A stretch of 64,000 nt of DNA from Eledone cirrhosa (Eukaryota): contig OZ024741.1 in the NCBI GenBank assembly GCA_964016885.1, positions 228,036,001-228,100,000 of the forward strand. Reading direction: 5' to 3'. A program made the position numbers and the translations under genes. Below, in pieces: positions 350 to 44,838 of this stretch. The notes beneath the pieces are model-generated. The model did no database searches and was not told the DNA's origin. It worked only from the letters and a program-made list of their open reading frames with translations. The first letter of the stretch is position 1. Each line of letters begins with the position of its first letter.

Positions 350-620
350 TTTGCCATATAGAGTTATGGCCCTTTATGATCTGAGTTCAAATCCCGTCGG
401 GGTTAGCTTAGCCTTTCATCCTTACGGGGTCGATAAAATATAGCATTAGTAAGGTCGATTTAATCCACTTTCCCTTCCTCCCAAAGTGCTGGCCTTGTGC
501 TTAAAGTAGAAACAATTATTATTATTGTAAAGTACCAGTAATGCATTGGCGTCTATTTAATACACTTCCCTCCGCAAAAAAATTGTTGGCCTTGTGCCTA
601 AATTCGAAACCATTATTATT
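350..620 (+). mobile_element. tRNA-derived SINE (Meta/MESC-like core), one 5'-truncated copy plus a 3' fragment
   Basis: B-box GAGTTCAAATCC, core GCCTTTCATCCTTACGGGGTCGATAAAA, 3' GGCCTTGTGC..AGAAAC(ATT)n. Confidence 0.8.
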
Positions 621-1051
621 TTAATTACTTTTGGGTTAACCAGTTTAGTATCAGTAATATATGGAGTTTGATTAAGTTGCGCTTCATCTTCTTTGATGCA
701 ACACGTAAATTATGTTGACAAGGGAGCATTAAGTTTATTGTTGTTATTATTAAGTAAAATGGCAGTAACAGTGCTGCGGAGATATCTGTCCTGGCATGAT
801 GGTGAGGTGAAGTTCAAATCCCACTGTGTCCGATTTTCATTTTTTTTTTCCAATGGTAGATAAAACATATTAGTTAAATTCATGAACCTATACAATCTAC
901 AAAACCCTTCACTCTAGTAGACATTTGTCGATGTTGCATATACTTAGGGCGTTAGGTTGGCAGAGTCATTAGACCGCCGGACACAGAGGCTTAGCAGTAT
1001 TAGTTACGGCTTTTACTCAAATGCCATCAAGGTCAATTTTGTTCTGGATCT

Positions 1052-1052
<1 letters not shown>

Positions 1053-1092
<40 letters not shown>

Positions 1093-1326
1093 CGTGTGTG
1101 TGTGTTAGTGTATATTCTATGTATATATACTTATACATATATATCTATATGTATATATATACATATATATTTATGTACATATATAATTATATGTGTATAT
1201 ATATATATATATAAAAATATATATGTATATGTATGTATATGTGTATATGTGTATATATATATGTATATGTGTATCTATAATTACATATATATATATATAT
1301 ATGTATATATATGAATATGTATGTAT

Positions 1327-1361
<35 letters not shown>

Positions 1362-1456
1362 CATATATGTACATATATATATATGTGTGTGTGTGTATAT
1401 ATGTATATATATATTTGGGGCACCGCGGTCAGGTTTTTACCTCTCTCTCTCTTTCC

Positions 1457-1518
<62 letters not shown>
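1053..1518. repeat. (TA)n/(TG)n/(CT)n compound microsatellite
   Basis: Direct reading. Confidence 0.95.
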
Positions 1519-1520
<2 letters not shown>

Positions 1521-2426
1521 GTAAAACTTAGAAAGAGAAACGAAAAAGGTAGAAAAGTAATGTTGAAACATTTAAAAAAAAATATTAAAAGTTATGTAGT
1601 AGTGAAATGTAAAAGCCGTTTGAAACGATATACCTTTACTCTCTTTATAATTATTATTGCTATAATTTTAATGTTGTGACAATAAAATCCGGAGTAAGTT
1701 AGGCTGGGGGAACACAAATGACTAAAAGAAAATAAATAAGTTTAAAGCTATAGAGAGCAAAATCGAGTGGGGCTGATCGCTATTAGTAAGAGCTGGCAGA
1801 GAATCAGCTGTAGATATTGAGCAAAAATAGTATTCAAATTGTAAATAAAAATAACAACTTTATTAAAATATATAAAAATTATGTTTTTATGATTTTACTA
1901 TCATTTCACATTTATTTATAAATGTTTTCTAAAGTTTTAGTTACATATATAGATATACTTACATTACACTTTCATGGGATTGTTACTGCATTACCACGTA
2001 TGCAGTGTCTTTTGGGGATGTAGAATTGTGCTTGTATACTAAATAATCGACTGTTCCCTCCCACAGAAGTTCCTTAAGTGGTTTTTTGGAGGGGTGGGAG
2101 GCTATTGTATTAAAAGAATTATGTATAAGAGGCGAACATTACCTAGTTGTAGTATATTCTGCATGTTGGGTGTATGTGTATAATTCTTGAGACATCCTAA
2201 GAAATATGTGTGTGATATGTTCCTGTATGTTGTGTATATATGCAAGTTCTGTGGTTTAAGGTTATGTGTTTGTCTGAATGCCTTTCTTTAATTATTCAAA
2301 AGCCAATATTATGAGGTTTATAGGGAATGTGTTTATTTTCAGTTCCAATATTTGGATTATCTCTGTTTCCAAATTTCTGTTTGGATAATTTCCTTGAGAG
2401 ATACATCATCGTCTATTGGGAATGAT

Positions 2427-2625
<199 letters not shown>

Positions 2626-3204
2626 CCATGTGTACCGTCATAATATTTTCCTACCTACCTAACTGTCTTACATACCTTTCAACACTGAAAAGACGGGATA
2701 GCGTTGGTGGGCAGGAGAAAACCCTCCCAAACCTGCCCTGTTACATTACTTCCAATGCAATAAACTGGGCTGTTCGGATGGGTAATTACTGTGAGGCCCT
2801 CCAACATATACGTAGGTGTGTATCTGACTGAAATGGTCAACTGATTACATGCGTGTAACAGATCGGTTCAATGAGATCTAACCAGAGATTACACCACGAA
2901 CAACAAACAAAATGTAATCAACAACAGCTATCTCTTCAGTGTGGTTAACTACCCCATGATTCCAATCAATATCCAGAATTTTCTGCCAATCTGGCCATCA
3001 TTTATACTTGTCTATAAAAGTTACTAACGACAATCTCATGTGTGTGAGTCTGTATAGGCCAGTTCTATATATAAATATATCTATATACACATATGTATTC
3101 ATATACATGTATATACGCATATATATACGTTCATATGAATACACACACACACCACACACATATATATGTATATATATATGTATGTATATATATGTATATA
3201 TACA

Positions 3205-3307
<103 letters not shown>

Positions 3308-3343
3308 GTATATATATGCGTGTGTGTTTGTGTATGTGTCAGG

Positions 3344-3443
3344 TAGAAATGACTTCTACAAGCCTAAAACTCTTTCGTTCATTTGAAATCATCAGGAATC
3401 ATGATGATTCAAACGAATGAAACAGTTCTAGAAATCATTTCTA
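3344..3443. mobile_element. Mini fold-back PLE relic with degenerate hammerhead cores, related to 27850-27972
   Basis: TAGAAATGA...TCATTTCTA inverted ends; centre TCATCAGG-AAT-CATGATGA; shares GAATGAAACAGTTCTAG and the downstream ATGTATTGAGTAC with the 27.9 kb copy. Confidence 0.55.
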
Positions 3444-3595
3444 TATGAAATAAAAATGTATTTTCTTTACTAATGTATTGAGTACTTTATTTAATTATTT
3501 TTTCTTCCCTATCTCCTTCGGAAAATCAATCAATACATATATATACATATATACATATACACATATATACAAGTATATAGCTAATAAATATATAT

Positions 3596-7967: not shown

Positions 7968-7974
<7 letters not shown>

Positions 7975-8533
7975 CGTAGTTTAGAAAGCCACAACAATGC
8001 AGAGGGAAATCTCGAGGTAGGAAGTGAATGATAGATAGGAGAAATAGGAGAAAGTGAAAATTGAGAGAGACAAAGATGAAAACAAAACAAAGGTAGAAGG
8101 GTTACCGTAGTGGAGATTTAATCCCAATATTTCGGGCTCACGCCCATCAACGGGGGAAAGTTCCAAAGGGGGGGGGGGGGAACAGGCTAAGCCGGAGAAA
8201 GTTGTGATGTCGTTAAAACAGGAATGCCGTTATAATAACGGCATTCCTGTTTTAACGACATCACAACTTTCTCCGGCTTAGCCTGTTCCCCTCCTTTTGG
8301 AACTTTCCCCCGTTGATGGGCGTGAGCCCGAAATATTGGGATTAAATCTCCACTACGGTAACCCTTCTACCTTTGTTTTGTTTTCATCTTTGTCTCTCTC
8401 AATTTTCACTTTCTCCTATTTCTCCTATCTATCATTCACTTCCTACCTCGAGATTTCCCTCTGCATTGTTGTGGCTTTCTAAACTACGTATTTTACACAT
8501 TTCACAATGCTTCAAGCAAACTTTAACACCCTC
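7968..8533 (+). mobile_element. Fold-back solo 3' end (pLTR) of the PLE family at 9906-15918
   Basis: Palindrome centred on 8234 with ~265 bp arms, plus unpaired 38-nt tail 8496-8533, embedded in (TA)n; homologous to 15615-15918. Confidence 0.9.
8306..8341 (+). ncRNA. Minimal type I hammerhead-like motif, variant core (mirror copy 8122-8157 on minus)
   Basis: TCCC-CCGTTGA-T-GGGC GTGA GCCC-GAAA-TA-TT-GGGA. Confidence 0.6.
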
Positions 8534-8760
8534 ATATATATATATATATATTTATATATATATGTAGATAAATCTACCAAGAGTTTACGGTAGTGTCCAA
8601 TCCGTATGAAGAACTCAATGTAATCCGGATATCATGGAAAGAAGAGATGCAATGAAAAATCACTTTCGGTGAAAGATAAACGGAATACAGAGTCAAGATA
8701 AAATATTAAAAAAATAATGAATAAAACAATGAAACAGTTCCTTATATTAAACAAAAAAAG

Positions 8761-8914
8761 TTCATTATTTAACGATCGTTTCTAAGATATATATGTGTTA
8801 GAATTGGCATGCATATTCAACAGATCTATGTACAAAATTATACAAAATTATACAAACTATCAAAATTAAATATACATACCAACACATATATATGCCGTCT
8901 TCAGAAATAATGAA
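8761..8914 (-). ncRNA. Type I hammerhead ribozyme with long stem II
   Basis: Minus strand: TTCATTATTT-CTGAAGA-...ATATATATGTGTTG/TAACACATATATAT...-GAAAC-GATC-GTT-AAATAATGAA; 10-bp stem I and canonical core. Confidence 0.7.
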
Positions 8915-9505
8915 ATATATTTATTGATAATAACAACAATTCAAAATTACAGGTCTGTTTGGGAACAGAGTTCAAATTGACCAATGAAAATACGAAAAGT
9001 TTATACAGTTAGGTGTGTGTATATATGTAAGTAACTTCGTTCACAGATATGCATAAAAATATATGTTCACATGCATACGCATGCCGAAAAGATGTATGTA
9101 AATACAAAAATTCAAGGCTAATGTCTCTGTATGTCTATAATCTACAGATAAAATACGTATACGCATATAAACATATAAATATAAAAAAATCTAAAAAAAT
9201 AAATATATACACACACATTCATATACTCACACATATACGTACATTCACACACACACGCGCGTATACGCATAAACATACACACAACCACGAACATACATAC
9301 ACACATATATGTGTATATACTATTATCATAAGCATATGGACATTAATGCGCGCACATAAACACTGCCACACATATTTAGATCCAGATACAGAAAGTAGGT
9401 GGGGGGAGAAGAGGTCAGTATTTAGCGGTGTCAGCAAACTGCCTATTTATAAATGTATCTATAAATTTAGAAATAAAAAGAAAAAGAAAAAAGAAGTATA
9501 TTAAG

Positions 9506-9573
<68 letters not shown>

Positions 9574-9610
9574 AACAAGTAAAATATAAAATATACATCG
9601 ATATACATAC

Positions 9611-9669
<59 letters not shown>

Positions 9670-9845
9670 CATATACATACATATACATACACATATACAT
9701 AAACACATACATACACATACATATACATACACACACCATATAAATACACATACACATACACACACGCATACATATAGAGACACATACATATACACATATA
9801 AATACATAGACATATACACATATACACACATATATATATATAAAC

Positions 9846-9879
<34 letters not shown>

Positions 9880-10705
9880 TCACAACACACATATATATAT
9901 ATATATAAAAATACGTATTTAAGAAAGCCACAACAATGCAAAGGGAAATCTCGAGGTAGGAAGTGAAATATAGATAGGAAAAACAGGTGAAAGTGAAAGT
10001 TGAGAGAGACAAAGATGAAAACAAAACAAAGGTAGAAAGGGTTACCGTAGTAGAGATTTTAATCCCAATATTTCGGGCTCACGCCCATCAACGGGGGAAA
10101 AGTTCCAAAAGGGGGGAAAACAGGCCAAGCGGAGAAAGTGTTGGTGTCGTTAAGACAGGAATGCCGTTATGGGGAGAAAATATTTAAAATTTAAACGAGG
10201 GAGAGAATGCGCGTGCGCGTGATAAGCTGTGGCAAAAGCTACTGACCAAATGGGTTAAATCAAGAGGGTGCGTTAGCGTGTGAAAGCCTTAAGATATGTG
10301 TATGTAAATATATATGTGTGTGTGACTGTGTGTGTATAGGTGTAAGTGTGTATATGTGTGAGTGTGTGTGTGTGTGAAAGATAGTGGGCTGTAGAAGTTG
10401 GAAATCAAAGGGTGTGAAAGGTGGTAGGTTGTAAAATATGTGTGCGTGTATAAATATAGAAGTGTGTGTGTGTAAGCGTATGGGTATACATGTGTGTGTG
10501 TAACTGTGTATGTATATGTGTGAGTGCGTTTGTGTGTGAAAGATAGTGGGCTGTAGAAGCTGGAAATCAAAGGGTGTGAAAGGTGGTAGGTTGTAAAAAC
10601 ATGTGTGCGTGTAAAATATAGAAGTGTGTGTGCATGCGTATGGGTATGCATATACGTGCGTGTGTGTGAATATAACAGGCCGTAGGCTGTGAATGGTCAT
10701 TATGG

Positions 10706-12866
10706 TTAAATTAGCCATGTCAGCTCATTTCTCTCAGCCCGGTTGTTAAGTGGGGGTCTGAGGTTCTTAATAACAAGTGCTTCCTTTATCCTTAAGGATC
10801 CGATGCTGCGTTCAGTCGCTAGGACTGTGACCAAGGGTCTACCCTGTGGGTTTCCGCATTTGAGGATATGTTTACGGAAGGAAGATGCGTTGGTGTTGAT
10901 ATGTTCCTTGATACGAACATGTAGGGGTCGGATGGTGCTACCTATGTAAAACTTGTTACATTTATCGCATTGAATCTTATATACGACATAGGTGCGTAGG
11001 CAATCTGCCCCCCGTATCGGGCAGTTGCTGAGGGAACAAGTCCTATCTGCCTCGTAGGGTTTGTTGGAGAGGCATCTTCGCAGCGAAGGTCCTGTGTGGG
11101 CCAAATGTATGTCAAGTCCCTCCGTACGTATGGCCCTGCGGATGGCGTTCGTGGTACATTCACTCAGGTGGGGGATTTTAAAGAAGCACCTGCTAATATT
11201 AAGTTTTCTAGTGGGTGTCGGTCTACTGGGTCTGGGGTCTCTAATTCCGTTAATCAGTCGCTTGGGATAACCATTAGATCTGAGTAGATTACGGAATTGC
11301 GTGGTATGGGTGAGACCACCCATCGGGTCGCTGCATCTGTTAGTGATCCGTGTCAGTTCATTTAGGACATAGCCTCTCTTAGCGTTGTTGGGGAGGGCTG
11401 AGTTATAATGCACAAATAGGTCCTTGCACGCTGCTTTGCGGTAGAAAGTGGTGTTTATGTCTCCATGTTCCGAGATGTTGATACGGAAGTCGAGGAGGGC
11501 GAGTGACCCGTCTTCTCCCGGGTGTTCGATGGTGAAATCGATGTGTTGGTCCGTATCGTTGAAGATTTGGTGAATTTCATTCGCCATCTCCCGGGAAGAA
11601 GTAAGTATCAGGATATCATCAACGTATCTGGAGTAGAAGGCGACGGCGTTGGGTTGGCAGGTATTGAGTGCCTTGCGCTCCAGGTGGTCCATGTACGAGA
11701 TCGCAAGTATGCCGGACAGACTAGAGCCCATAGGTAGCCCAGAGATTTGTTTGTACGTGTGGCCAAGGAAATTGAAGAGTGCATTATCCACAACGAAGGA
11801 GAGGAGTTGGTGGATGTCCGTGTGTGTGAGTCCGAAGCAGTGTAGGTTAGATGCTCGGACTCGTTCGGTCAACAGGTCGACAGCTGGGGATGCTGGTACG
11901 GAGGTATAAAGGGAGACCACATCAAGACTGAAGGCATAACCGTTGTCCTTTCTGGTGTTGGGCGCCAGATGGTGTAGTCGCTCCAAGACTTCCATTGAGC
12001 TGCAGACGTGGGCTGGTAGTGTGTGTAGAATAGGTTTCAGTAGTGTGGAGAGCAGCCACGATATTTTATAGAGTGGGCCCTCCACGCTAGAGACAATGGG
12101 CCTGATTTTCAAATCGGGTCCTTGTTTATGTGTTTTGACCAGGTGGTAGAAGGTGGGTAATTTGCTGTTTCGAGTCATTATGTTGTTTTTTACCTTCTTT
12201 GGCAGTTTTCGTTGGACACAGATGTTAGTCCATATGGTGTTAATGCCTTCCTCGATTAGAGTCGAGGAGGTCCCTGTGACTTTGGAGTAGAGGCTGTGGT
12301 CATTAAGATGTTGGAGAGCTAAGTTGTTGTAGGTCTCTCTCGAGATGACACAGAATTCTTTCCCCTTGTCAGAGGGAAGGTACACAAGGTTCCTGGATCT
12401 TAGGTTGGTGAGAGTATTAAATTGTGCATTGGTGAGGTTGCGTTTGTTGTGTGTGTGTGTGTGTTGGGAAAGGATGTTAGAGATAGAATGTTTCAACCTG
12501 AGTAGTTTAGTGTCAAGTTCGTGGTTGGTGGGTGGGGGGTGGAGTGGGTTGTCGAGGTGATACGTGGGGAGTGTGGGGTGGGTTGTGGGGTTGTAATCGA
12601 TCTCGGTGTTGTTTTGGATGGCGGTTAGCCATTTCAGTTGATAAGCTGTCCGACAGAAATTGGTTTCGATGTCGAGTTTCAGTCTATCATCGAGACGCTG
12701 TGTAATGATGAACTTGGGTCCGAGGCGCAGAAGTTCGAGTTCGTCGTTGGTGAGGGTACCGGTTAAGTCGGTAACGAGGTGTGAAGTATCGTTGGTAGGT
12801 AGATCGATGTTGGGGGGTGTAGCGGAGGGTGTTGTACAGCTGTTGCCCCTGGTGTGGTTGTAGTCG
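10706..12866 (-). CDS. PLE reverse transcriptase-GIY-YIG ORF, inverted arm (the N-terminal ~21 aa of the 741-aa call come from the spacer and opposite arm)
   Basis: Identical to the plus-strand ORF from DYNHTRG onward. Confidence 0.85.
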
Positions 12867-15079
12867 AATGGACTGTAAACAAATACTACATTGACAACAT
12901 CCGCTCCCACAGACGGACCGACTACAACCACACCAGGGGCAACAGCTGTACAACACCCTCCGCTACACCCCCCAACATCGATCTACCTACCAACGATACT
13001 TCACACCTCGTTACCGACTTAACCGGTACCCTCACCAACGACGAACTCGAACTTCTGCGCCTCGGACCCAAGTTCATCATTACACAGCGTCTCGATGATA
13101 GACTGAAACTCGACATCGAAACCAATTTCTGTCGGACAGCTTATCAACTGAAATGGCTAACCGCCATCCAAAACAACACCGAGATCGATTACAACCCCAC
13201 AACCCACCCCACACTCCCCACGTATCACCTCGACAACCCACTCCACCCCCCACCCACCAACCACGAACTTGACACTAAACTACTCAGGTTGAAACATTCT
13301 ATCTCTAACATCCTTTCCCAACACACACACACACACAACAAACGCAACCTCACCAATGCACAATTTAATACTCTCACCAACCTAAGATCCAGGAACCTTG
13401 TGTACCTTCCCTCTGACAAGGGGAAAGAATTCTGTGTCATCTCGAGAGAGACCTACAACAACTTAGCTCTCCAACATCTTAATGACCACAGCCTCTACTC
13501 CAAAGTCACAGGGACCTCCTCGACTCTAATCGAGGAAGGCATTAACACCATATGGACTAACATCTGTGTCCAACGAAAACTGCCAAAGAAGGTAAAAAAC
13601 AACATAATGACTCGAAACAGCAAATTACCCACCTTCTACCACCTGGTCAAAACACATAAACAAGGACCCGATTTGAAAATCAGGCCCATTGTCTCTAGCG
13701 TGGAGGGCCCACTCTATAAAATATCGTGGCTGCTCTCCACACTACTGAAACCTATTCTACACACACTACCAGCCCACGTCTGCAGCTCAATGGAAGTCTT
13801 GGAGCGACTACACCATCTGGCGCCCAACACCAGAAAGGACAACGGTTATGCCTTCAGTCTTGATGTGGTCTCCCTTTATACCTCCGTACCAGCATCCCCA
13901 GCTGTCGACCTGTTGACCGAACGAGTCCGAGCATCTAACCTACACTGCTTCGGACTCACACACACGGACATCCACCAACTCCTCTCCTTCGTTGTGGATA
14001 ATGCACTCTTCAATTTCCTTGGCCACACGTACAAACAAATCTCTGGGCTACCTATGGGCTCTAGTCTGTCCGGCATACTTGCGATCTCGTACATGGACCA
14101 CCTGGAGCGCAAGGCACTCAATACCTGCCAACCCAACGCCGTCGCCTTCTACTCCAGATACGTTGATGATATCCTGATACTTACTTCTTCCCGGGAGATG
14201 GCGAATGAAATTCACCAAATCTTCAACGATACGGACCAACACATCGATTTCACCATCGAACACCCGGGAGAAGACGGGTCACTCGCCCTCCTCGACTTCC
14301 GTATCAACATCTCGGAACATGGAGACATAAACACCACTTTCTACCGCAAAGCAGCGTGCAAGGACCTATTTGTGCATTATAACTCAGCCCTCCCCAACAA
14401 CGCTAAGAGAGGCTATGTCCTAAATGAACTGACACGGATCACTAACAGATGCAGCGACCCGATGGGTGGTCTCACCCATACCACGCAATTCCGTAATCTA
14501 CTCAGATCTAATGGTTATCCCAAGCGACTGATTAACGGAATTAGAGACCCCAGACCCAGTAGACCGACACCCACTAGAAAACTTAATATTAGCAGGTGCT
14601 TCTTTAAAATCCCCCACCTGAGTGAATGTACCACGAACGCCATCCGCAGGGCCATACGTACGGAGGGACTTGACATACATTTGGCCCACACAGGACCTTC
14701 GCTGCGAAGATGCCTCTCCAACAAACCCTACGAGGCAGATAGGACTTGTTCCCTCAGCAACTGCCCGATACGGGGGGCAGATTGCCTACGCACCTATGTC
14801 GTATATAAGATTCAATGCGATAAATGTAACAAGTTTTACATAGGTAGCACCATCCGACCCCTACATGTTCGTATCAAGGAACATATCAACACCAACGCAT
14901 CTTCCTTCCGTAAACATATCCTCAAATGCGGAAACCCACAGGGTAGACCCTTGGTCACAGTCCTAGCGACTGAACGCAGCATCGGATCCTTAAGGATAAA
15001 GGAAGCACTTGTTATTAAGAACCTCAGACCCCCACTTAACAACCGGGCTGAGAGAAATGAGCTGACATGGCTAATTTAA
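12854..15079 (+). CDS. PLE reverse transcriptase + GIY-YIG endonuclease (C-terminal EN, Cys-rich linker; Neptune/Nematis-like), N-terminally truncated
   Basis: SDKG, IRPIVS, SLDVVSLYT, GLPMGSSLS, RYVDD, LDF; linker CxxxxC..C; VVYKIQCDKCNKFYIGST..R.KEH..EAL..LN. The GTG start lies in the inverted arm, so it is not the native start. Confidence 0.92.
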   Translation: MVVVEWTVNKYYIDNIRSHRRTDYNHTRGNSCTTPSATPPNIDLPTNDTSHLVTDLTGTLTNDELELLRLGPKFIITQRLDDRLKLDIETNFCRTAYQLKWLTAIQNNTEIDYNPTTHPTLPTYHLDNPLHPPPTNHELDTKLLRLKHSISNILSQHTHTHNKRNLTNAQFNTLTNLRSRNLVYLPSDKGKEFCVISRETYNNLALQHLNDHSLYSKVTGTSSTLIEEGINTIWTNICVQRKLPKKVKNNIMTRNSKLPTFYHLVKTHKQGPDLKIRPIVSSVEGPLYKISWLLSTLLKPILHTLPAHVCSSMEVLERLHHLAPNTRKDNGYAFSLDVVSLYTSVPASPAVDLLTERVRASNLHCFGLTHTDIHQLLSFVVDNALFNFLGHTYKQISGLPMGSSLSGILAISYMDHLERKALNTCQPNAVAFYSRYVDDILILTSSREMANEIHQIFNDTDQHIDFTIEHPGEDGSLALLDFRINISEHGDINTTFYRKAACKDLFVHYNSALPNNAKRGYVLNELTRITNRCSDPMGGLTHTTQFRNLLRSNGYPKRLINGIRDPRPSRPTPTRKLNISRCFFKIPHLSECTTNAIRRAIRTEGLDIHLAHTGPSLRRCLSNKPYEADRTCSLSNCPIRGADCLRTYVVYKIQCDKCNKFYIGSTIRPLHVRIKEHINTNASSFRKHILKCGNPQGRPLVTVLATERSIGSLRIKEALVIKNLRPPLNNRAERNELTWLI

Positions 15080-15139
15080 CCATAATGACCATTCACAGCC
15101 TACGGCCTGTTATATTCACACACACGCACGTATATGCAT

Positions 15140-15414
15140 ACCCATACGCATGCACACACACTTCTATATTTTACACGCACACATGTTTTTACAACCTACC
15201 ACCTTTCACACCCTTTGATTTCCAGCTTCTACAGCCCACTATCTTTCACACACAAACGCACTCACACATATACATACACAGTTACACACACACATGTATA
15301 CCCATACGCTTACACACACACACTTCTATATTTATACACGCACACATATTTTACAACCTACCACCTTTCACACCCTTTGATTTCCAACTTCTACAGCCCA
15401 CTATCTTTCACACA
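15140..15414 (+). repeat. ~160-bp tandem duplication in the PLE 3' UTR (mirrored at ~10371-10645)
   Basis: ACCCATACGC...TTTTACAACCTACCACCTTTCACACCCTTTGATTTCC..CTACAGCCCACTATCTTTCAC occurs twice. Confidence 0.85.
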
Positions 15415-15686
15415 CACACACACTCACACATATACACACTTACACCTATACACACACAGTCACACACACATATATATTTACATACACATATCTTAAGGCT
15501 TTCACACGCTAACGCACCCTCTTGATTTAACCCATTTGGTCAGTAGCTTTTGCCACAGCTTATCACGCGCACGCGCATTCTCTCCCTCGTTTAAATTTTA
15601 AATATTTTCTCCCCATAACGGCATTCCTGTCTTAACGACACCAACACTTTCTCCGCTTGGCCTGTTTTCCCCCCTTTTGGAACTTT

Positions 15687-15722
15687 TCCCCCGTTGATGG
15701 GCGTGAGCCCGAAATATTGGGA
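15687..15722 (+). ncRNA. Minimal type I hammerhead-like motif in the PLE 3' UTR (mirror copy 10063-10098 on minus)
   Basis: Stem I TCCC/GGGA, core CCGTTGA+T, stem II GGGC-GTGA-GCCC, GAAA, palindromic stem III ATAT, predicted cleavage after AUU. Confidence 0.6.
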
Positions 15723-15918
15723 TTAAAATCTCTACTACGGTAACCCTTTCTACCTTTGTTTTGTTTTCATCTTTGTCTCTCTCAACTTTCACTTTCACCT
15801 GTTTTTCCTATCTATATTTCACTTCCTACCTCGAGATTTCCCTTTGCATTGTTGTGGCTTTCTTAAATACGTATTTTTACACATTTCACAATGCTTCAAG
15901 CAAACTTTAACACCCTCT

Positions 15919-16043
15919 TATATATATATATATATATACATATATGTATATATATACACATATCTACACACATATATAAACACACTCATGTATATACACA
16001 CATACACATACATACCCACACATATATATATATATATACATAT

Positions 16044-16119
<76 letters not shown>

Positions 16120-16178
16120 ATACACACATATACACATACACATATACAAAGATATATATACATACACACACACATATA

Positions 16179-16231
<53 letters not shown>

Positions 16232-16517
16232 TATACATACATACACACACATACATACTCATACATAGACATACATATATACACACATACATACACACAT
16301 ACATATACGCATATATACACATACATACACATCCATGTATGCGTATATACATACAAACACCACCACACGCTCACACAACTCAGACATACATAAATAAAGG
16401 GATATACATACACATATATACATATATAAATAGAGATACATATACACATATAAATATATACACACGTACACACACACACACACATACATACACATACATA
16501 CATACATACATATATAT

Positions 16518-16566
<49 letters not shown>

Positions 16567-16727
16567 TATATATATATATACATATATATAAAAAAATAAA
16601 GAAATAAAAGAAATAAATAAATAAATTAATTAATACACACAGTCAGACAAATATGCACACACATACATATACATATATATATACATACATATACATACAT
16701 ATATATATATACATACACACATCAACT

Positions 16728-16767
<40 letters not shown>

Positions 16768-18088: not shown

Positions 18089-18503
18089 GTGTGTATGATT
18101 GTGTATAGAAGATTATATTAATAAAAGGAATTCCAACTTTGTCTGATTTACTCGTTTTATTTACAATCCTTTAAAATTTATAATGGTATTAGAACGAAAT
18201 AGTATGGTAGAATATTAAATGTTAAGTGTTATTTGAACAAGTACTTTCATGCTTTCGAAATCTTCAGGTTCATATTGTGTGGTGACAGTCAAGATTGCAA
18301 TTTTCAACTGTCAGTTGAAAATTGCAATCTTGACTGTCACCACACATTATGAACCTGAAGATTGCGAAAGCATCAAAGTGCTTGTTCAATTAACACTTAA
18401 CATTTAATATTCTACCATACTATTTCATTCTAATACCATTATAAATTTTAAAGGATTGTAAATAAAACGAGTAAATCAGACAAAGTTGGAATTCCTTTTA
18501 TTA

Positions 18504-18508
<5 letters not shown>
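18078..18508 (-). mobile_element. Fold-back PLE 3'-end relic (palindrome 18114-18508 centred on 18311, ~35-nt tail on left)
   Basis: ~197-bp near-perfect inverted arms in (TA)n, with a hammerhead motif in each arm. Confidence 0.8.
18350..18388 (+). ncRNA. Type I hammerhead motif (mirror copy 18234-18272 on minus)
   Basis: Consensus of arms: TGAAC-CTGAAGA-T TGC GAAA GCA T-GAAA-GTAC-TT-GTTCA. The plus copy has G12>C; the minus copy has a stem II mismatch. Confidence 0.7.
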
Positions 18509-22325: not shown

Positions 22326-23350
22326 AGAGGGTCGACTGAAAAGTTCATAGGCTGACCAAGATATTCTTTAAAAGCTCCATGCTTCCTGAAATTCGCCAAC
22401 ACTACACCTGATACCCCCCCCCCCCCCTCCATACACACGCACATGTGAATATCATGGCTCATACACTGTTCACTTTCCTGACATTTGCACATTATTCTAT
22501 GTACTATACATGCACCTTTGATGAGTTGTAGTGCAACTGAGCACTGTACACAATACTTTCATTATTATTAATAGGGCGGTGGATTGGCAGTATCGGTAGA
22601 GGGTCGGACGCCATGCTTTGAAGAATAGAGTTACCTCCCTTTATGATCTGAGTTCAAATCCCGCCGAGGTTAATTTTGCCTTTCATCCTTACGGGGTCGA
22701 TAAAATAAAGTACCAGTAATGCACTGGGTATTTGCTGGCCTTGTGCCAAAAGTAGAAACAATTATTATTAATAATATTGGATGGTGGATTGGCAGTATCG
22801 GTAGAGAGTCGGACGCCATGCTTTGACGCATAGAGTTACGGCCCTTGCCATTCTGAGTTCAAATCCCGCCGAGGTTAACTTTGCCTTTCATCCTTACGGG
22901 GTCGATAAAATAAAGTACCAGTAATGCACTGAGTAATTGCTGGCCTTGTGCCAAAAGTAGAAACAATTATTATTAATAATATTGGATGGTGGATTGGCAG
23001 TATCGGTAGAGAGTCGGACGCCATGCTTTGACGCATAGAGTTACGGCCCTTGCCATTCTGAGTTCAAATCCCGCCGAGGTTAACTTTGCCTTTCATCCTT
23101 ACGGGGTCGATAAAATAAAGTACCAGTAATGCACTGAGTAATTGCTGGCCTTGTGCCAAAAGTAGAAACAATTATTATTAATATTATTATCATGAAATTA
23201 CCAAATGTGGTTTATTTTTCAACATAGTCCGTGGAAAGAAACAATGTAGTTAGTAATGAGAAGAGTTTTAATGAATGCATGCAAGATTTCACAAGTCTAG
23301 TATCACTCCTTCATAGTCAGCCTATGAACTTTCTGCAAAGAAAGCCCCGT
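22326..23350. mobile_element. Tc1/mariner-like MITE interrupted by a SINE trimer
   Basis: TIR remnants AAAGTTCATAGGCTGAC (22340-22356) and GTCAGCCTATGAACTTT (23316-23332). Confidence 0.5.
22573..23190 (+). mobile_element. Three head-to-tail full-length SINEs (~200 bp); copies 2 and 3 appear identical
   Basis: A-box TGGCAGTATCGG, B-box GAGTTCAAATCC, Meta-like core, (ATT)n junctions. Confidence 0.9.
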
Positions 23351-24628: not shown

Positions 24629-25090
24629 TACTAGCAGAAAACCCCCGAAGGGTGGTTTTCTGCTAGCATGTGTAGTGTGCATATTGATATTATACGCAAA
24701 TATATATGCATGTAGATATGATACGTCAAATAAAATTGTAATTGACAATATGCACAGAAATTGAAATGAGACTGTGTTACACTCTCTTCCGTAATCAATA
24801 AAATAATCCATCATACATTTAAAAAAGACGATATTATATATAAACTGCATTACGGTGAAATCTAATGAAAACGGCAAAGGAGAAAATTACCGACAGAAAT
24901 ATATGAACGTTTATATAAGCGATGTAATAAGTGTTATGATATAACGGACGCTAACCGGAAGTGTAGACATTTGAAAATTTTAAAAGAAGTAAAACTTAAA
25001 ATAAGCAATAATTATATATAAGAATATTTATGTTTAATCAACAGCTACGAAATTTAGTACAAAAATTATGTAATATTCATTCATTATTTA

Positions 25091-25470
25091 TTCGGTGGAT
25101 TGGCAGTATCAGTAGAGGGTCGGACGCCATGCTTTCCAGCATAGTTACGTCCCTTTACGATCTGAGTTCAAATCCCGCCGAGGTTGACTTTGCCTTTCAT
25201 CCTTACGGGGTCGATAAAATAAAGTACCAGTAATGCACTGGCTAATTGCTGGCCTTGTGCCTAAAGTAGAAACAATTATTTATTCGGTGGATTGGTAGTA
25301 TCGGTAGAGAGTCGGACGCCATGCTTTCCAGCAGAGTTACGTCCCTTTACGGTCTGAGTTCAAATCCCGCCGAGGTTTACTTTGCCTTTCATCCTTACGG
25401 AGTCGATAAAATAAAGTACCAGTAATGCACTGGGTAACTGCTGGCCTTGTGCCTAAAGTAGAAACAATTA
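25091..25470 (+). mobile_element. Two tandem SINEs
   Basis: Near-identical ~190-bp units. Confidence 0.9.
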
Positions 25471-26781
25471 TTTATTCAAAGTAATCTAACTTATTTTAGT
25501 AACGGGATAAAAAATATATATTCAGGACACAGTCCCGCACTCCCCACTTTATTATATTATGATTGGCATCGTACTAAGCTAGAAAGGCGGTCAATTTGAC
25601 GGAGTCGTGGGATATTCGTTTCAAGACTCTGCCTTTAAAGCCCACTGAAGTCCAATTTGCCTTTCATCCTGGTGTCCCCTTTCGCTTTTCAGCTGTTACA
25701 TCCTGGATGTTCCTGGGTAAAGAGAGGGTGTGGCGTGATGGTGTCTGTATCTTCTCGTGATTGTATGGTCACCTAAAACTCTAAGCGAAAGTGTGCTGCA
25801 TACTATCAAGTCATACTTAATTGTCGTTGATGGCTGTAGCTCTTTTGGGTGGGCTAATAGATTAGGATGATGAACACTAGGAGAACTCTACCACCAACAG
25901 ACTGTTTCTATACCAAGCTGGCGTCGCTAAACCTTTAAGTACCATTCCCTTTCATAAAAGTCGCGGATCTCAAATATTCCGGGTTCCATGTGTGTAAAAG
26001 AACAAAAAACAATAGTAATTATCTAAATGAAATTATCATTATTGTTGGGGTTTTTAATTCTCAAATGAAAATCTAATTTCAGATACAAATTGCGACAGTT
26101 AAACAAATCAAGAAAAAAGCGGATATTAGATGAATAATTTCAACTATATAAAAATTACTTTCTACCTAATTATTTATACTATTTTGTAAAGCTAGGGAAG
26201 AACCTCCACGTGGTTTCCCGACCTGCTGGAAATAGAAGTCAAATCTCCCATGACCGCATCCTAGCATCTTTGAAAAATGGGCTGATTGGAGAGTGTTGTT
26301 CGAGGTTTAATATTCAAGAAAACAAAGTGACAGGATAGTTATGGTTTGAATGCCTTTGATCTCAAATATGCTCATTCAGTATTGCCCTGGTGCTAAACCT
26401 CAACAATAGCATCCTCTTCATTGGAACGACCGATTCACAGTTAACTAATTTTGTAAACCCACAGATTATTTCCAAATAGAGAAAGTAATGAAACACAGAG
26501 ATCTGTGTGGTTTTTTGACTTGCTCTATTTTATAGTCACAGCTAAACCGAACAAAACTTCTCTAATTTTGTCATTAAAACAGAAAAACATTTTCTCGTCC
26601 CAAGTATGTCTAAACTTCTATCTACAAAATATTAATAATATATATATATATATGCTAACATACTCTCATACATATTTATTCACACAACCATATATATCTA
26701 TACATACATATAAGTATAGATATATGATACAGGGGTTTGGTTCTATGAAAGATTTGATAAAATTAACAGATACAGATAATA

Positions 26782-32585: not shown

Positions 32586-34397
32586 TTACCTTACTTCTCG
32601 TAGAGTAAGGATGGTTTGTCCATCCTTTTCACTGCTTGTGGCCTCCTCCGGAAGGATGTCCTTATAAATCCTCCTGGAGAGTGCTTGTCGGAAGTCTCCG
32701 ATGTCTTTGAGGAATTTTTGTTTAAGTGTCGTGTACGTTTTCTGCGTGATGCGAGTGATTTGTATGTGTGGAGGGGGTGTGAACTTTTGGGGTGTTGTGT
32801 AGTCTTTTTCTGTGATTCTGGTGTTGTGTTGGATGTAGTGTAATAGTTGGTTGTTGTTCAAATTTAATGCTGTGTAGTGTGTATCGTTTTGGTTGTTTTG
32901 TTTTGTTTGCGTTTGTTGTGGGTTTATATCTGTTTCGCTTTTTGGTGACTTTTGTGGTTTTGGTGATGGTGGTGTTGGGGTTAATGATGGTGATGGTGTT
33001 GGTGTTTGTGGTGATGGGGTTGGTGATGCTGGTGTGGATGGTGGCATAGCTGTCCTAACTTTTTTGTTTGAAAGTTTATTTGTTTCCTTCTGTATTTTGT
33101 CTTTGGAGGGGGAAGGAAGAGAATTTTTTTCTCTTTTGGCTTCTTTTTCTTTTTTCTTTTTTCCTGATACCGTTTCCCACTCCTCCTCGTCACAATCTGT
33201 CTCCAGTTGCGATAGGTCGGGGAGTGGAAAATCCTCCACTGGCGTTAGTTTTGGTTGTGGTGTGGTGGATGGTGTAGGCGCTGGTGCTAGTTCTGGCGCG
33301 GTGGGTGGTGGTGGTGTTGGTTTTGCTACTGTTGCTGGGGTTATTGCTGCTACAGTTGCTTCTGTTGTTGCTGCTACAGTTGTTGCTGCCATTTCTGGTG
33401 CTGGTGGTTGAGTCACTGGGGTGGGTAAGAGAGGTGGCCTCAACTTTTTAGCCTGAGGGCAGAAAGCCCTTAGGTGGGTTCCTTCACCACAAACGACACA
33501 CCTAGGCCTTCTGCCCTCGACGATTACGGTGAGGTGGCTGCCGACAGTGAGGTCTATTACCTCTGGTATCTCCTCAATGCTTTTTTGGTCCGCTTGGATC
33601 AGAAGCTCCATCCCAGATCCGGACCAGTTCTGCTTTTCTTTCGCTATTTCGATTATCTTGGTGTTGGCGAGGACGGCAGCCATTAGCCAGGGAATTTCGA
33701 TGGCCGGTGAAACATGGGTCACCCTTATCTTCACGAGTCTCTGGCCACAATAGCTTGGGACGAGTGTGAAATCTTCACTTCTTAATGGGGCCATGGAGTG
33801 TTCTCTGACCTTCTGTGGTGTTCCAAAGGACACGTCCACGGTTCCATATTTCTGCCCACGTCTGATGTGGGATTTTTTTGCCCACACATGTACCAAAGCT
33901 TTTTGGATTTGGGACTCGGATGCCCGTCCCACTCTTTACCATTCTCTTGGCTTCATCTAATTCCTCCTGGGTTATCTGGATTGTTTCGCACCTTTTGGCT
34001 GCTTTGGCAAAAGACACGGTGGTTTTGTTATTCTCATTGTTGTTGTTGCTGTTGTTGTTATCGTTATTTTTGTTATTGTTATTTTTAATTTCAGTTGTGT
34101 TGGAGGTGGCATCAGTGGTGTTCGGTGTGGAAGAGTCCATTCTGGGTGAATCCATTTCGATGTCACGAGATAATTTATTTTTTCTTTTGTTTCTGTTGTC
34201 GCTGTGGATGTGGTGGGGGTGGCGGCTTCAACACCTGCAGTCATTGGTAATGGCGGGAAATGAATGTCTGCATGAGACAAATTTAAATTATTACTATTGC
34301 TTATATTTTTAGTGTTGGCAAACGTAGTAATATTTACAATGGTGGTGTCGGTGTGAGGTCTTAGTTTGTGAGGAAGGTGTGGCTGTGAGTAGTCCAT
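32586..34397 (-). pseudogene. LINE A ORF1 (gag-like, single CCHC), frameshifted near the 5' end
   Basis: CVVCGEGTHLRAFC; RGQKYGTV and SFAKAAKR match ORF1 of element C. Confidence 0.8.
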
Positions 34398-34634
34398 GAT
34401 TGTTAAAGGAAATTTTTTTTTTGTTTGATAATTATAAAAGTTTAAATTTTGGGCTCAAGGCCCCTCGTGTTTTTGAGTGTTCTTTTCCGAAAGCAAATTT
34501 TGTGACCTTATAAACAGTTAACAACAAAGATTTTCCATAAATGGCAATTTTAAACAAACGAAAACAACATACGTTGCGGAGCTCACGATGATGCGATTTC
34601 GTACGTAGGTCGCCAATAATATAATAATAATAAT

Positions 34635-37600
34635 GATTTCGTTATTGGCCACGAGGGCTGACATTAAGAAAAACATTACAGACGGCACAGGACGGTACGA
34701 TGTGGGTTTTGTGCGTGTAAATATTTTTATTATTTATATAAGAAAAGAAAAAAAAGTCATAGAAACATATATATATATATAAACGATAAAAATCAAAATT
34801 GAAACAATGAAAAATTCCCCAATAGGGGTGAAACCTCCGAGAGTTACTCGTGGTGAAAACCACACATAAGACCACGGCCATCCTGACCACCAGGGCAATG
34901 CCCTCTCTCAATTTTTCCATCTCTCAAACTACAGACGTATATTCACAGCGGTCCCGTTCACTCGGACCATTCTCGCTACATTCACCCAACTTTCAACAAA
35001 CTTTCTAGAAGGCAGCACTTGCCTCTCCATCCTGATTTTCCTCTTCAAGTGAAACTTGAAAAAGTTAATTAGGGATTCGCCGAAGAGGAAAGTGTCTGTC
35101 TTTAACCCTTTCAACCTTGTCCACCACACAATCTCTTACGCAATGGCCACCAGGCAGATGAAAACCGCCTGCCCTTCCTCCTCGAAGGAAGACGGCGAGA
35201 CCATCTGCACAATGGACACAGTCGATAACCGGATCAGTCCTACACGCGACAGCAACTGTTCAACATAGCTCCATAAGTCAGCAATGTTCGGGCACTGAAC
35301 GAGTGCGTGCACGACGGTTACGTCGCTATGCGCGCATCTCGGACAGGCTTGGCTGACGGCACTTCCGTGCCTGTAGAGCTTATCTCGAACCGGCAGCGCT
35401 CCCCGGTAGCACTGCCAGGCCAGTGATTTTTGGAAGTTATCCATAGGCCCTGGGCTGAAAGTTCTCCGGAAGAGAGCAAACAGCTGATCTTCTTCGACGC
35501 CCAGGATCTCTCCGAGAACGTCGACGCTCCCCCCCCCCACTACTTCTCTATAGAACGTCGTGGTGGATGTTCCACCGATACTGGTGCCCAGCTGGCAGAG
35601 GGCCGTGAGCGCCTGGAGAAATTCCAGTTTCCAAGCGCTATACCTCGGTCTTTTTCTGACCCAAGACTGCAGCTCCGTCAAGGAGACGAGCTGTGGGAAA
35701 ACGTGCCTGGTGAACGGCGACCACACCTGTTCACCGTCGAGGAAGCACCAGAGATGTCACAGCCTCAACGCATGTTTTCGCATCATCAGCCATGGCATGC
35801 CAAGTCCTCCACGCAACGGGTGTTGCCAGCAGATGGATCGTCTAAACATGGGAGCGCGTCCCCTCCACAAAAAGCGGAAGAGGAGGCGCTCCATTTTGGT
35901 GAGAGTTCGGCCGGGGCAAGGGACGACGGTAAGGAGGTATCAGATAACGGATGCGATGTACGCATTCGCCACCTCCGCCCGGCTTTTCAGTGACGTCTTC
36001 CTCTCGGCCCATTTCTGGGTGAGGGAAGCCACCTTGCTCGTCACCTCGTTCCAGTTTTTCTCCATCTGGAGGTCCGGTCCGAACCAGTCCTCGAGCAATT
36101 TAACCGGTCGGTCCGTCCAACGCCCCACGACGCTGTCGGACGGCATGGACTTGCCTCTCCAGGTGCCGAGCTGCAACCCCACTGACTTTTCCTGGTTTAT
36201 CTTTGCTCTTGTCACCGCTTCGTATTCCATGAGAGCGGTGCCGAGCATCTGGACGTGTCTGGTGCTCGACACCACCACGGTGACGTCGTCGGCGGAAGCT
36301 GACTCGGATTTCCGTATCCTAGTTCGCGTGGGACGCCCCTCAATTCCCCCAGTTTGTTCAGTAACGGCTCGAGAGCCAATACGTACAAGAGGGACGAGAG
36401 GGGACAACCCTGGCGGACTGAGCACATGATGCTGAACGGCTGCGACAGGTGACCATTGACCCTCACAACTGAGCAGATGTCGCTGTACATCGCAGCAATC
36501 CAACCCCTGAAAACGGGCTCGAAACCGGCTGCCTCGAGGACCGCCGCCAGGTACCGATAGTCGACCCTATCAAATGCTTTGGATTGATCCAAGTTGATCA
36601 GGGCCCCACCCGTGCCAGGTTCCTTAACTGCCCTCTCTATGATGTATTGCATGAGGTGGAGGTTGTCGTGTATGGATCTGTCCGGAATGGCGCATGTATG
36701 CGCCTCTCCCACCAGACCCTTGACGACAAGCGCCAACCTCGTTGCTAAGACCTTGGCCCAAATCTTCAATTCTGCGTTTAGCAGGGTTATGGGCCTGGAA
36801 TTATCGATAACGTCCCCCTTGTTCGGGTCTTTTTTCAGCAGCGCCACCGTTCCCCGGCTCACAAAACGTGGAATGCTCCCGTTCTGCTGCCAGTTGCAGT
36901 AGACGTCTGCCAAGAGGTCACCGAACAAGTCTGTCATAAATGCATAAAGCTCGTAGGGCAAACCATCCAAAGCTGGTGATTTACCCCTCGTGCAGTTAGC
37001 CATCGCTTCCCGTATTTTACCGGCTGTTATTGGCTTTTCGCAACACTGTGCTGCGGTCGTCGAGAGCCAAGGCAGTCCGTCGAGGAATGCACTGAAGTCC
37101 ATGCTCCAATCCGGGCCGCCGCCGCTCCCGAACAGTTCAGCAAAGTGCTGCTGAAACGCTTCATACATCTGCTCGGGTTCGAGCAACACGCACCCGTTTT
37201 GGTCAGACAAAGACCGAATTGTGGCTTTGTTGCCACATCGCGCCTCCGCCACCCGGGCCCATTGGACGGCTTTTGTCCCCTCGTGTTACAGAGCACGCGC
37301 TCTAGCTCTGACAACGCAGCCTTCGTGTTTTGCGTTGAAGAATTGGTCGAGTGCCAATCTCGCCGCAAGCACCTCGGTTGCGATGCCTATCCTAAACGCC
37401 TCTTCTAGCTTTCTGACTAGCTCTCCCTCTACTCTATTTTCCTCTATCACTACTCCTTTGCTAAACCTAATCGACTCTACTGTAATTTCCCTTTTCAGGG
37501 CGAACCACCACCTGTTGTTGACGACCCCTCCCGTCAACGCCCGCTTAACTAATACGCTAATCCGGTCTCTGTAGGCTTTGCGCGCCGGGAAAGACGCGTT

Positions 37601-39897
37601 CAGCTTCCAGTAACCAGGCTCTTGTCTATGAAGTCTGTCTATGTCGATCTCACAGATCACAAATTTGTGGTCTGTGTAGTCGACTATTTTAAATTGTGGA
37701 CAACTTATACTAGCCTTATCTAGTTCTCTGCAGAATACCCTATCGAGATATGATCTGGATGACCCGATGCGGTTTGCCCATGTCCACATTAGCACATTCG
37801 GGTGATCCAGTCGATACGTGTCAGACAGTTCAAAACGTCTGAGCAGGTTGGTGAGGCTCTTGCACCCTCCTACCTTATCCACTAGCCCCACACAATCCCA
37901 GCGTGCATCCAAGATACCGTTCCAGTCGCCCACTAACACTAAAGAGCGGGACGTTCCAAGAAAGGTTTCTAGACGTCTGAAGAAATCTGGCCGTCCTGCC
38001 CCTGTTGTGGCGTAGACGGCTACTAGCCTGAAAGCACTGCCTTTTCTGCCGGTCACGTCCAGCACCACCGAATTACCTTCTGGGTCTAGGAAGATGGCCC
38101 GTATGGCGAGATCCAAGCCTCTCCAAAAAAGGACGGCAACCCCTTCCCCCGATCCTGGACGTCTGGGAGATGCGTGTACATTGTAGCCGCCGAAGATCGG
38201 TGCGAAGGCCTGTGCTTCGGAGATTCTGGTCTCACTGATGGCCACCACATCTATGTTTAGTGACCATCTATGTTTAGTGTTCTATGTCGTTGAGCAGGTG
38301 ACCATGCTTCCAAGATGACCCCAGGCCATTTATACTGCCTATTCTGAGTACGGCCAAGTTGGATGAGAAATGGGGCAGGTGAGAAAGAGTCACTTACCTT
38401 GATCGTGTGGTGAAGGGACAGTAGAACCGTCCCTTTCGCTGGTCATGGGTGTTTCTAAGAGGATGTCAGTGTATATCCTCTTGGTAACCGACCCTCTGAA
38501 GTCTCCAACTGCGTCGGGGAATTTTTGTTTTAAAGTTTTGTACTGTTCTATTGAGATTTGAATGATGCTTATGATTGTCGGGAGAGTTCCTGGTGTTGGT
38601 GGGGTGTAGTAGTTTTTTTCTGTGATGTCTGTGTGCTGCTTTATATATTGTATGAGTTCTTTTTTTGCCATGTTTATGGCTGTGTACCTTTTGGTGGGAG
38701 GAGTGATTTTGTTGCTGTTTTCTTCTTGATGCTGTTTGGTGTGTGTTTTGTTTTGTTTGCGCTGTTGGTGTTTTTGGTGATGCTGGTGGTGGTGTGGTTG
38801 TTGTTGTCAGTGGTGCTTGTGGTGGTGTTGCTGCAAGTTTCCTTGCTGCCTTTACCCCTCTTTGTATGCCTTCGCTTTTGGAGGGTGAATCTAAAGGGTT
38901 TTTTGTTTTTTGTTTTTTGTGGCAGACCGTTTGTCACTTCACTCCCGCCTCAAACTCCATGTCGGATTCTGTGGCGTCTGGGAGGGGTTTGTGCTCCACG
39001 GCTGTTGGTGGTGGTAGTGGAGCCCTCTTCGGCAATTTTGTTGCTGGTGTAGCTACTTCAAATGTAGCTATTGGTGTTGCCGCCACTGATGATGTTGCTT
39101 TAGTTGTCCGTGGCCTTGGTACGGGTGCTACGGACGTTGCCCTCCTACTCACCGTGGAAGGGGCTTCTGCGTTTGTTGCCTGCCCTTCTCTTGGTAGAAA
39201 CAGACCAGGTATTGGAAGGAGAGGGGCCTTCTTCCTCGCTGTCTTCTGTGGGCAAAAGGCCCTGAGGTGACCCTTCGACCCACAGAGATAACATTTTGGC
39301 CGTCTTCCTTCTACACTTATAGGGAGTTTGAGTCCTTCCTCGATGTATATGATATCGGGGATAGCGTCGATATATTCCTGGTTAGTTTGTATAATCATTT
39401 GCATGCCTATACCTGAGCAGTTCTCTCTCCCTATTTTTTCTATTTGCAGCATGGTCGTCCTGTTCTCGATTCCAACAAGGACAGCCGTGGCCAGCCAAGA
39501 TATGGGCACGTCGGGTGGGACCTGGGTCACTTTGACACTCACAATTTTCTGCCCGCAGTAGGAGGGCACCAAGACTATCTCCTCACTCTTTAGGGTTTCC
39601 AAAGTGTGAGACATTGCTTCCTGGGGTGGCGAAAAGTACGTCTACTGTGGCGTACCTTCTGTTGTTATTATTGTTGTTTTTGTTGATACTGTTCCTACTA
39701 TTATTGTTGTTGTGGCTGTTGTTATTGTCATTGTTATTGTCGTTCTCGACCTTACCGCTGTTATTATTGTTATTGTCGTTCTCGACTTTACCGCTGTTAT
39801 TTGTGTTGTTTCTGTTGTTATTGATGGTGTTGTTGTTGGTGTTGTTGGTGTTATTGTTGGTGTTGTTTGTGTTAGAAATATTTGTTAATTTTAAATC
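34635..39897 (-). mobile_element. Tx1/L1-clade LINE B, 5'-truncated and defective
   Basis: ORF1 pieces (CYLCGSKGHLRAFC) and ORF2 pieces 34929-38356 with stops and frameshifts; (TTA)n tail. Confidence 0.9.
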
Positions 39898-44735: not shown

Positions 44736-44838
44736 GGCTGCAGGTAGTGGCTTGATATTCAATCCAACGGACTTTCCAGTTAACCAACATCAATGACTGA
44801 GATTCAAGGAATAACAATAACAATAATAATAATAATAA

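What the first reader, a model, noticed from the sequence alone, without database searches (positions are those of the whole stretch)
9906..15918. 6-kb palindrome: a Penelope-like element copied back on itself
Seen: two ~2960-bp arms with identical translations in the paired ORFs. The 52-nt spacer continues the plus-strand reading frame (EWTVNKYYIDNIRSHRRT), and a 39-nt 3' tail is present only on the right arm. Both flanks are (TA)n. Known: PLEs form inverted pLTRs with short tail extensions. Unusual here: the inversion duplicates the whole RT+GIY-YIG coding region rather than a terminal repeat only. Inference: the RT snaps back onto its own cDNA. Read-through transcription would give ~3 kb of dsRNA, a substrate for ADAR or small-RNA pathways.
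Basis: partly seen in the sequence, partly recalled or inferred. Interest (0 to 1): 0.78.

Follow-up and report, generated by a model that had tools for sequence, protein, structure and literature searches.

The report
Two-armed Penelope insertion, tail one side
This 6-kb palindrome is a young, start-less double copy of an abundant Penelope-like jumping gene, laid out head to head as this family often inserts, and likely built by two copying starts rather than by one strand folding back; the layout is already known.

Summary
Confirmed: two 2961-bp arms with no mismatch, a 52-nt spacer of element sequence, a 39-nt tail on the right only, and (TA)n flanks. The flanks are the two halves of another repeat, which argues against an artefact. 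The structure is not unusual. Of 71 position-sampled loci of the family, 43 are head-to-head, and five other loci also duplicate RT core plus endonuclease. One of them is 8.4 kb long with two intact 879-aa ORFs. Both arms here lack the start codon. Of 51 junction records with both ends readable, 50 carry exactly one tail, 1 none and 0 two. The tail sits on the shorter arm in 26 of 49 loci, and in 22 of those the other arm has no tail to copy. Simple snap-back cannot make these. The likely mechanism: both target strands prime at two RNA start sites 39 nt apart, and the two cDNAs join end to end. This fits published in-vitro work on an anole element. The dsRNA/ADAR idea is untested. The layout is in print, and this scan noted it before in other genomes.

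The parts
9906..12866 (-). Left arm: 5'-truncated element copy, family unit 452-3412, without tail
10706..12866 (-). Left open frame, 719 aa, RT plus GIY-YIG, N-terminal 160 aa and start codon missing
12865..12866 (.). 2-nt microhomology (CG) at the head-to-head junction; junction unique in the genome
12867..12918 (+). 52-nt spacer: single-copy element sequence (unit 400-451) belonging to the right arm
12919..15879 (+). Right arm, duplicated part, unit 452-3412
12866..15079 (+). Right open frame, 737 aa: GPKF, DKG, RT core (YVDD at 14159), Cys linker, GIY-YIG with CCHH; N-terminal 142 aa missing
15080..15879 (+). 3' untranslated part with a 162-bp tandem repeat (15134-15436) and the pseudo-LTR
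15615..15616 (+). Unit 3149-3150, where 18 of 159 family 5' ends stop; likely RNA 5' end (start site), pointing out of the palindrome
   Evidence: start-site reading is inference
15694..15735 (+). Hammerhead-like core (TTGATGG, stem II, GAAA) seen by eye; no Rfam hammerhead match
   Evidence: inconclusive
15880..15918 (+). 39-nt tail (unit 3413-3451), right arm only; holds the family ATG at 15891
8534..9905 (.). Left half of a different high-copy repeat, ending in the (TA)n target
15919..16760 (.). Right half of the same host repeat (outer end approximate)
7969..8533 (.). Older mini-palindrome of the same family: both arms stop at unit 3149, tail on the right only

Best explanation
This is a young head-to-head insertion of two 5'-truncated copies of an abundant (TA)n-targeting Penelope-like retrotransposon, likely made when both cut strands of the target primed reverse transcription at two start sites 39 nt apart and the two cDNAs were then joined at their inner ends. 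Shown: the geometry, the one-tail rule, strict (TA)n targeting, one shared haplotype in both arms, the split host repeat, and the missing start codon. Inferred: the endonuclease nicks both strands of (TA)n. One 3'-OH starts at unit ~3412 and the other at ~3451, on one RNA (or two RNAs from one source). Each cDNA runs its own distance, here to 452 and to 398. The ends anneal by a few bases and repair fills the rest. The copy is likely dead on arrival.
For: Exactly one tail in 50 of 51 readable junction records, none with two. Tail on the shorter arm in 26, the longer in 17, equal in 6 of 49 loci; in 22 of the 26 the other arm has no tail copy. In L033 the arm without the spacer is 3.4 kb longer than the arm with it. 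Several insertions have both arms stopping at unit 3149-3150 with almost no loop (L071, L081, L088, L094, L100, the window's mini copy), and L052 joins at a self-complementary GTAC. This suits two ends meeting. Arm lengths are coupled (Spearman 0.68, n=34). Arms differ at 0-1 shared polymorphic sites, against medians of 6-31 to other copies, in 14 of 14 loci. Six of 6 testable locus-private variants shared by the arms are in every tandem unit, so they came from the template. 98 of 98 outer ends lie in (TA)n. The flanks are contiguous in 14 of 24 other copies of the host repeat. In vitro, the anole element PAc cuts and extends both strands, starts RT at the two tail borders, and is predicted to be a dimer (PMC11167929).
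Against: This copy alone does not discriminate: its tail is on the longer arm and its 52-nt loop suits a fold-back. Tight junctions are in excess among long insertions (3 of 14 within 60 nt against 0.64 expected, p=0.018); coupling within short insertions is also strong (rho 0.75, n=20). Independent truncation does not predict either. Zero differences in 2501 scored bp has Poisson p~0.003 at the family mean rate, so youth, conversion or polishing must be invoked. 28 of 71 loci have one arm only. One junction record (L051) has no tail.
Confidence: 0.65

Rival explanations
1. Hybrid: both nicks prime, but the second cDNA is short; most of the short arm is copied from the first cDNA after a fold-back and then joined to the short second cDNA, which supplies or omits the tail.
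For: Keeps the one-tail rule; explains identical arms and the excess of tight junctions.
Against: Six of 6 testable shared private variants are template-derived, not first-strand errors (a small sample). Zero-loop junctions are hard to make by fold-back, and in L033 the arm without the spacer is the longer one.
Confidence: 0.14
2. Self-priming on an antisense RNA gives a long hairpin, which the endonuclease trims at the tail borders and integrates (Arkhipova et al. 2013; the tail as endonuclease resolution in Craig et al. 2021).
For: Proposed in PMC3846280 and PMC8557442. It can give arms of either length. Inherited variants show a T>C over A>G excess in sense notation (10:2 shared, 30:16 single-copy, 5:5 arm-specific).
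Against: The same two sites would have to be cut with either polarity at about equal rates (26 vs 17, p=0.22). PAc starts RT at these borders on sense RNA. The pile of 5' ends at 3149-3150 fits RT running off a sense RNA. The T>C excess also fits dG-opposite-U misreading by RT (own knowledge).
Confidence: 0.1
3. One reading: one primer; the RT snaps back on its own cDNA and copies it to the start.
For: In this copy the spacer and tail are on one arm, the loop is 52 nt, there is 2-nt microhomology, and the arms are identical.
Against: 22 of 49 loci have tail sequence on the shorter arm with no template in the longer arm. The copy would have to stop exactly at the second family start site each time.
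Confidence: 0.08
4. Fold-back read or assembly artefact.
For: Perfect identity over 2961 bp; no spanning reads were available, and no listed contig of 4 other runs spans the stretch.
Against: The mirror stops at the element's own tail-less end and does not enter the flank. The flanks are collinear halves of a host repeat. The one-tail rule holds across many contigs, and older palindromes have diverged arms (73 differences in 31,391 bp).
Confidence: 0.03

Closest known systems
Insertion unit of endonuclease-bearing Penelope-like elements (PMC3846280; PMC8557442)
   Same: Partial tandems forming pseudo-LTRs, an adjacent inverted 5'-truncated copy, head-to-head order, and a 30-40-bp tail often on one end only that overlaps the ORF start.
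   Different: Here the inverted copy is nearly a full unit long. The passages I read give no counts of which arm bears the tail, and they favour self-priming or endonuclease resolution.
PAc (Poseidon of Anolis carolinensis) in vitro (PMC11167929)
   Same: Two RT start sites bordering the tail, AT-rich cleavage, both strands cut and extended.
   Different: PAc is Penelope/Poseidon clade and its start sites lie 111-118 nt into the ORF; here the tail holds the ATG. The main text does not derive inverted insertions from the two-strand priming.
Nematis / PNL2_SM-type C-terminal-EN elements (PMC8557442 Fig. S2)
   Same: Short cysteine linker before a GIY-YIG with CCHH.
   Different: The linker here is C-x4-C-P-x5-C, lacking the first C of CxxC; no tree was built.
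LINE-1 twin priming (recalled, not read)
   Same: Both target strands prime and the products join by microhomology.
   Different: LINE-1 gives a 5' inversion without duplication; here the same sequence is copied twice.

Membership tests
EN+ Penelope-like element | Single ORF with RT and C-terminal GIY-YIG | tested here: met
   RVT_1 E=1.5e-11; GIY-YIG E=2.5e-4 at 21.7 bits, just under the 22.6 cut-off; many homologs carry PF01541; 879-aa intact ORFs in family copies
EN+ Penelope-like element | GxKF and DKG motifs; CCHH within the endonuclease | tested here: met
   GPKF, PSDKG, CDKC, KEH and RKH are conserved in alignment A1; motif names from PMC8557442
EN+ Penelope-like element | Partial tandems forming pseudo-LTRs | tested here: met
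   3451-bp unit in tandem in L032-L035, L042, L046 and others; not in this copy
EN+ Penelope-like element | Adjacent inverted 5'-truncated copy and 30-40-bp one-sided tail | tested here: met
EN+ Penelope-like element | Hammerhead ribozyme in the pseudo-LTR | tested here: inconclusive
   No Rfam hammerhead among 18 weak matches; a variant core with stem II is seen by eye and by folding, z=-0.97
EN+ Penelope-like element | Target-site duplication | tested here: inconclusive
   Empty-site spans are 34-72 nt against 60 nt summed here; (TA)n variation hides any duplication
EN+ Penelope-like element | RT groups with PLE/telomerase RTs in a tree | not tested
EN+ Penelope-like element | Intron retention | not testable with these tools
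   No RNA run
Nematis clade | Short linker with C..CxxC..C | tested here: inconclusive
   Length fits, motif reduced to three cysteines (one search compared by eye)
Neptune clade | Long linker with CxxC | tested here: not met
   Linker lacks the long insert of the Neptune rows (by eye)
Penelope/Poseidon clade | No cysteine linker | tested here: not met
   Three conserved linker cysteines
Hydra clade | CCHH absent, DKT, CxCX5C | tested here: not met
   CCHH and DKG present
Naiad/Chlamys | N-terminal endonuclease | tested here: not met
   The endonuclease is C-terminal

The most novel reading that the evidence does not exclude
The one-tail rule and the free choice of tail-bearing arm are the genomic footprint of a dimeric Penelope enzyme that primes both target strands at two fixed sites of one RNA and copies it twice, a duplicating form of twin priming. 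It would explain tails, head-to-head order and long perfect palindromes in one step, and would make this family a steady source of multi-kb palindromes.
Probability: 0.5. Interest if true: 0.55.

Novelty: new member of a known kind. Interest (0 to 1): 0.3.

Why it matters
The locus itself is ordinary. How Penelope-like elements build inverted insertions is still open in the papers read. The counts from this young family give a sharp constraint (exactly one tail, on either arm, one source haplotype) that rules out simple snap-back and can be tested in the published PAc system. If transcribed, such palindromes would supply long dsRNA, but nothing here shows transcription.

Tried and rejected
Run search: no RNA holder listed, so no statement on expression, editing or small RNA. 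Contigs of 4 runs (one study, at most 2 samples) carry the family, but none listed spans the stretch; this says nothing on this locus. No raw-read check of junctions was obtained. Rfam gave no hammerhead. Hammerhead cleavage as the cause of the 3149 pile was considered. Junctions in L065, L088, L100 and the mini copy keep bases up to 3149-3150, about 80 nt before the core, so a start site is preferred (inference). A-to-I editing of a sense template was tested: A>G is 2 of 39 shared private variants, so it is not supported. Large-scale conversion between arms is not needed: the private rate in duplicated parts, (56/2+39)/31,391 = 0.21%, matches 0.24% in single-copy parts. An inherited junction was rejected. 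The target-site duplication was unresolvable. Searches listed no paper whose title or abstract start proposes two-strand priming for Penelope inversions; the library lacks most subscription journals. bioRxiv 10.64898/2026.07.22.740005 (passages only) added nothing; its supplements are closed. The place look-up in the scan's notes was empty.

Full report
Observation. The palindrome is real in the assembly: arms 9906-12866 and 12919-15879, 2961 bp, no mismatch, a 52-nt spacer and a 39-nt tail on the right only. The plus-strand frame runs through the spacer. [quoted passage not shown] 277 unnamed relatives were found among 8000 candidates scored, the best at about 40-50% identity. An alignment of 12 of them conserves GPKF, DKG, YVDD, a three-cysteine linker and CCHH.

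The family. The window is G000:C2:228036001-228100000 in a 3.0-Gb genome; its SINE-like repeats recall octopus ones (recalled, not tested). The spacer plus ORF start has 663 candidate matches; all 40 scored are 98-100% identical. A natural tandem (L034) gives a 3451-bp unit. Intact ORFs are 879 aa with the ATG inside the tail. This copy starts at unit 398 (right) and 452 (left), so neither arm has the start codon or an upstream pseudo-LTR. A 28-nt 3'-end pattern has 464 exact matches, of which the first 100 were listed. They form 71 loci, all of which I mapped, together with 29 further stretches chosen for holding the 5' ORF. By eye, every close opposite-strand pair in the list is head-to-head.

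How unusual. 43 of the 71 position-sampled loci have an inverted arm; 28 have one arm, 16 without and 12 with tail. The shorter arm ranges from 18 to 2961 bp in 34 one-tail loci of that sample; this window is the longest, and the next is 2745. RT core plus endonuclease is also duplicated in L037, L040, L042, L046 and L050; four of these five come from the set chosen for length. L042 is 8.4 kb with an intact 879-aa ORF in each arm. A mini-palindrome of the same family lies at 7969-8533.

Rules of the structure. Of 63 junction records, 12 had an arm that ended early or ran off the stretch and were dropped. Of the other 51, 50 have one tail, 1 has none and 0 have two. One dropped record, L034, was later resolved as one-tail. 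After removing one local duplicate, 49 loci remain: the tail is on the shorter arm in 26, on the longer in 17, and the arms are equal in 6. In 22 of the 26 the other arm has no tail copy. All 98 outer ends lie in (TA)n. Junctions show 1-6 nt overlap in 27, longer overlap in 4, blunt ends in 6 and inserted bases in 12. Arm lengths are coupled (rho 0.68; 21 of 34 within 100 nt against 9.4 by permutation), and 18 of 159 5' ends stop at unit 3149-3150. Arms differ at 73 of 31,391 duplicated positions and share 234 minority alleles. They are each other's nearest or tied-nearest copy in 14 of 14 long cases.

Artefact test. The mirror ends at the element's own tail-less end, not in the flank. The left flank belongs to another repeat with 1726 candidate copies. 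In 14 of 24 other copies examined, the left and right flank sequences are contiguous across one (TA)n run; in the other 10 the exact anchor was not found. The centre junction is unique. Older palindromes have diverged arms, and several others have none, so identity here most likely means youth. Conversion or polishing cannot be excluded (Poisson p~0.003 at the mean rate). No spanning read was available.

Mechanism. In snap-back, the arm with the spacer is made first and is the only template for the other. A tail found only on the other arm (22 loci), or a second arm longer than the first (L033), cannot arise that way. Two primed cDNAs, one starting at each tail border, give exactly one tail on either arm. 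Frangieh et al. show that a Penelope-like protein cuts and extends both strands of AT-rich DNA and starts at the two tail borders (PMC11167929, parts 1-2 of 4 read: main text and start of methods). The shared haplotype and coupled lengths point to one RNA or one source. Six of 6 testable private variants are in all tandem units. Against this: tight junctions are in excess (3 of 14, p=0.018), and this copy alone fits a fold-back. A hybrid with a short second primer and antisense self-priming remain open. A T>C excess among inherited variants is unexplained. A hairpin RNA would need read-through or an antisense promoter, since the likely sense start sites at both ends point outward; this is untested.

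Known. Arkhipova et al. 2013 (PMC3846280; passages and the whole Discussion read) describe inverted pseudo-LTRs, an optional tail on one of them, long tandem/inverted structures and head-to-head order, and propose self-priming on antisense RNA. Craig et al. 2021 (PMC8557442; passages, and part 54 of 59 of the supplement plus two term hits) describe an inverted 5'-truncated copy next to the 5' end and a 30-40-bp tail often at one end. The element passes the Penelope-like tests that could be run. Its linker is closest to Nematis/PNL2_SM by eye; no tree was built. Earlier notes of this scan report the same layout in other genomes, including whole-ORF palindromes and an asymmetric-end rule (unchecked).

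Verdict. A new member of a known kind, real with high probability, and ordinary in layout. The useful addition is the family-wide count that argues against simple snap-back. Interest 0.3.

Noticed in passing
window 7969-8533: Older 565-bp head-to-head mini-insertion of the same family, about 91-93% identical to the unit; both arms stop at unit 3149.
   Followed up: yes
window 8534-9905 and 15919-~16760: A young high-copy repeat of about 2.2 kb (1726 candidates, 99% over the 501 bp searched), rich in TA/CA runs, with no coding frame seen; it is the insertion target. Class unknown.
   Followed up: partly
window 18114-18508: 197-bp-arm palindrome of another family with a 1-nt spacer; relatives in L107 (both arms), L084, L078 and L059. 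Possibly a MITE or the end of another Penelope-like family.
   Followed up: partly
L039 (C671) and L070 (C1:266.40 Mb): Same insertion with matching flanks, but L039 has one more full unit: allelic unit-number variation or an assembly collapse.
   Followed up: partly
L034/L115 (C363:14.1-24.0 kb): About 2.4 tandem units plus an inverted arm, differing at only three single positions; compatible with a tandem source or a circular RNA template.
   Followed up: partly
family-wide: T>C exceeds A>G in sense notation among inherited variants (10:2 and 30:16) but not among arm-specific ones (5:5).
   Followed up: partly
window 15740-15835: GT start, long pyrimidine tract and AG just before the tail resemble a retained 5' intron (by eye).
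   Followed up: no
window 41310-49146: Two near-identical non-LTR elements in tandem (1141 and 1010 aa frames; RT by Pfam for the first; C-terminal restriction-like motif seen by eye).
   Followed up: partly
window 54826-60203 (-) and 32586-38281 (-): An L1/Tx1-like element with intact two-frame layout (endonuclease, RT, zf-RVT) and a broken relative.
   Followed up: partly
window 22578-23188, 25083-25477, 54186-54595: Tandem arrays of a ~200-bp SINE-like unit.
   Followed up: no
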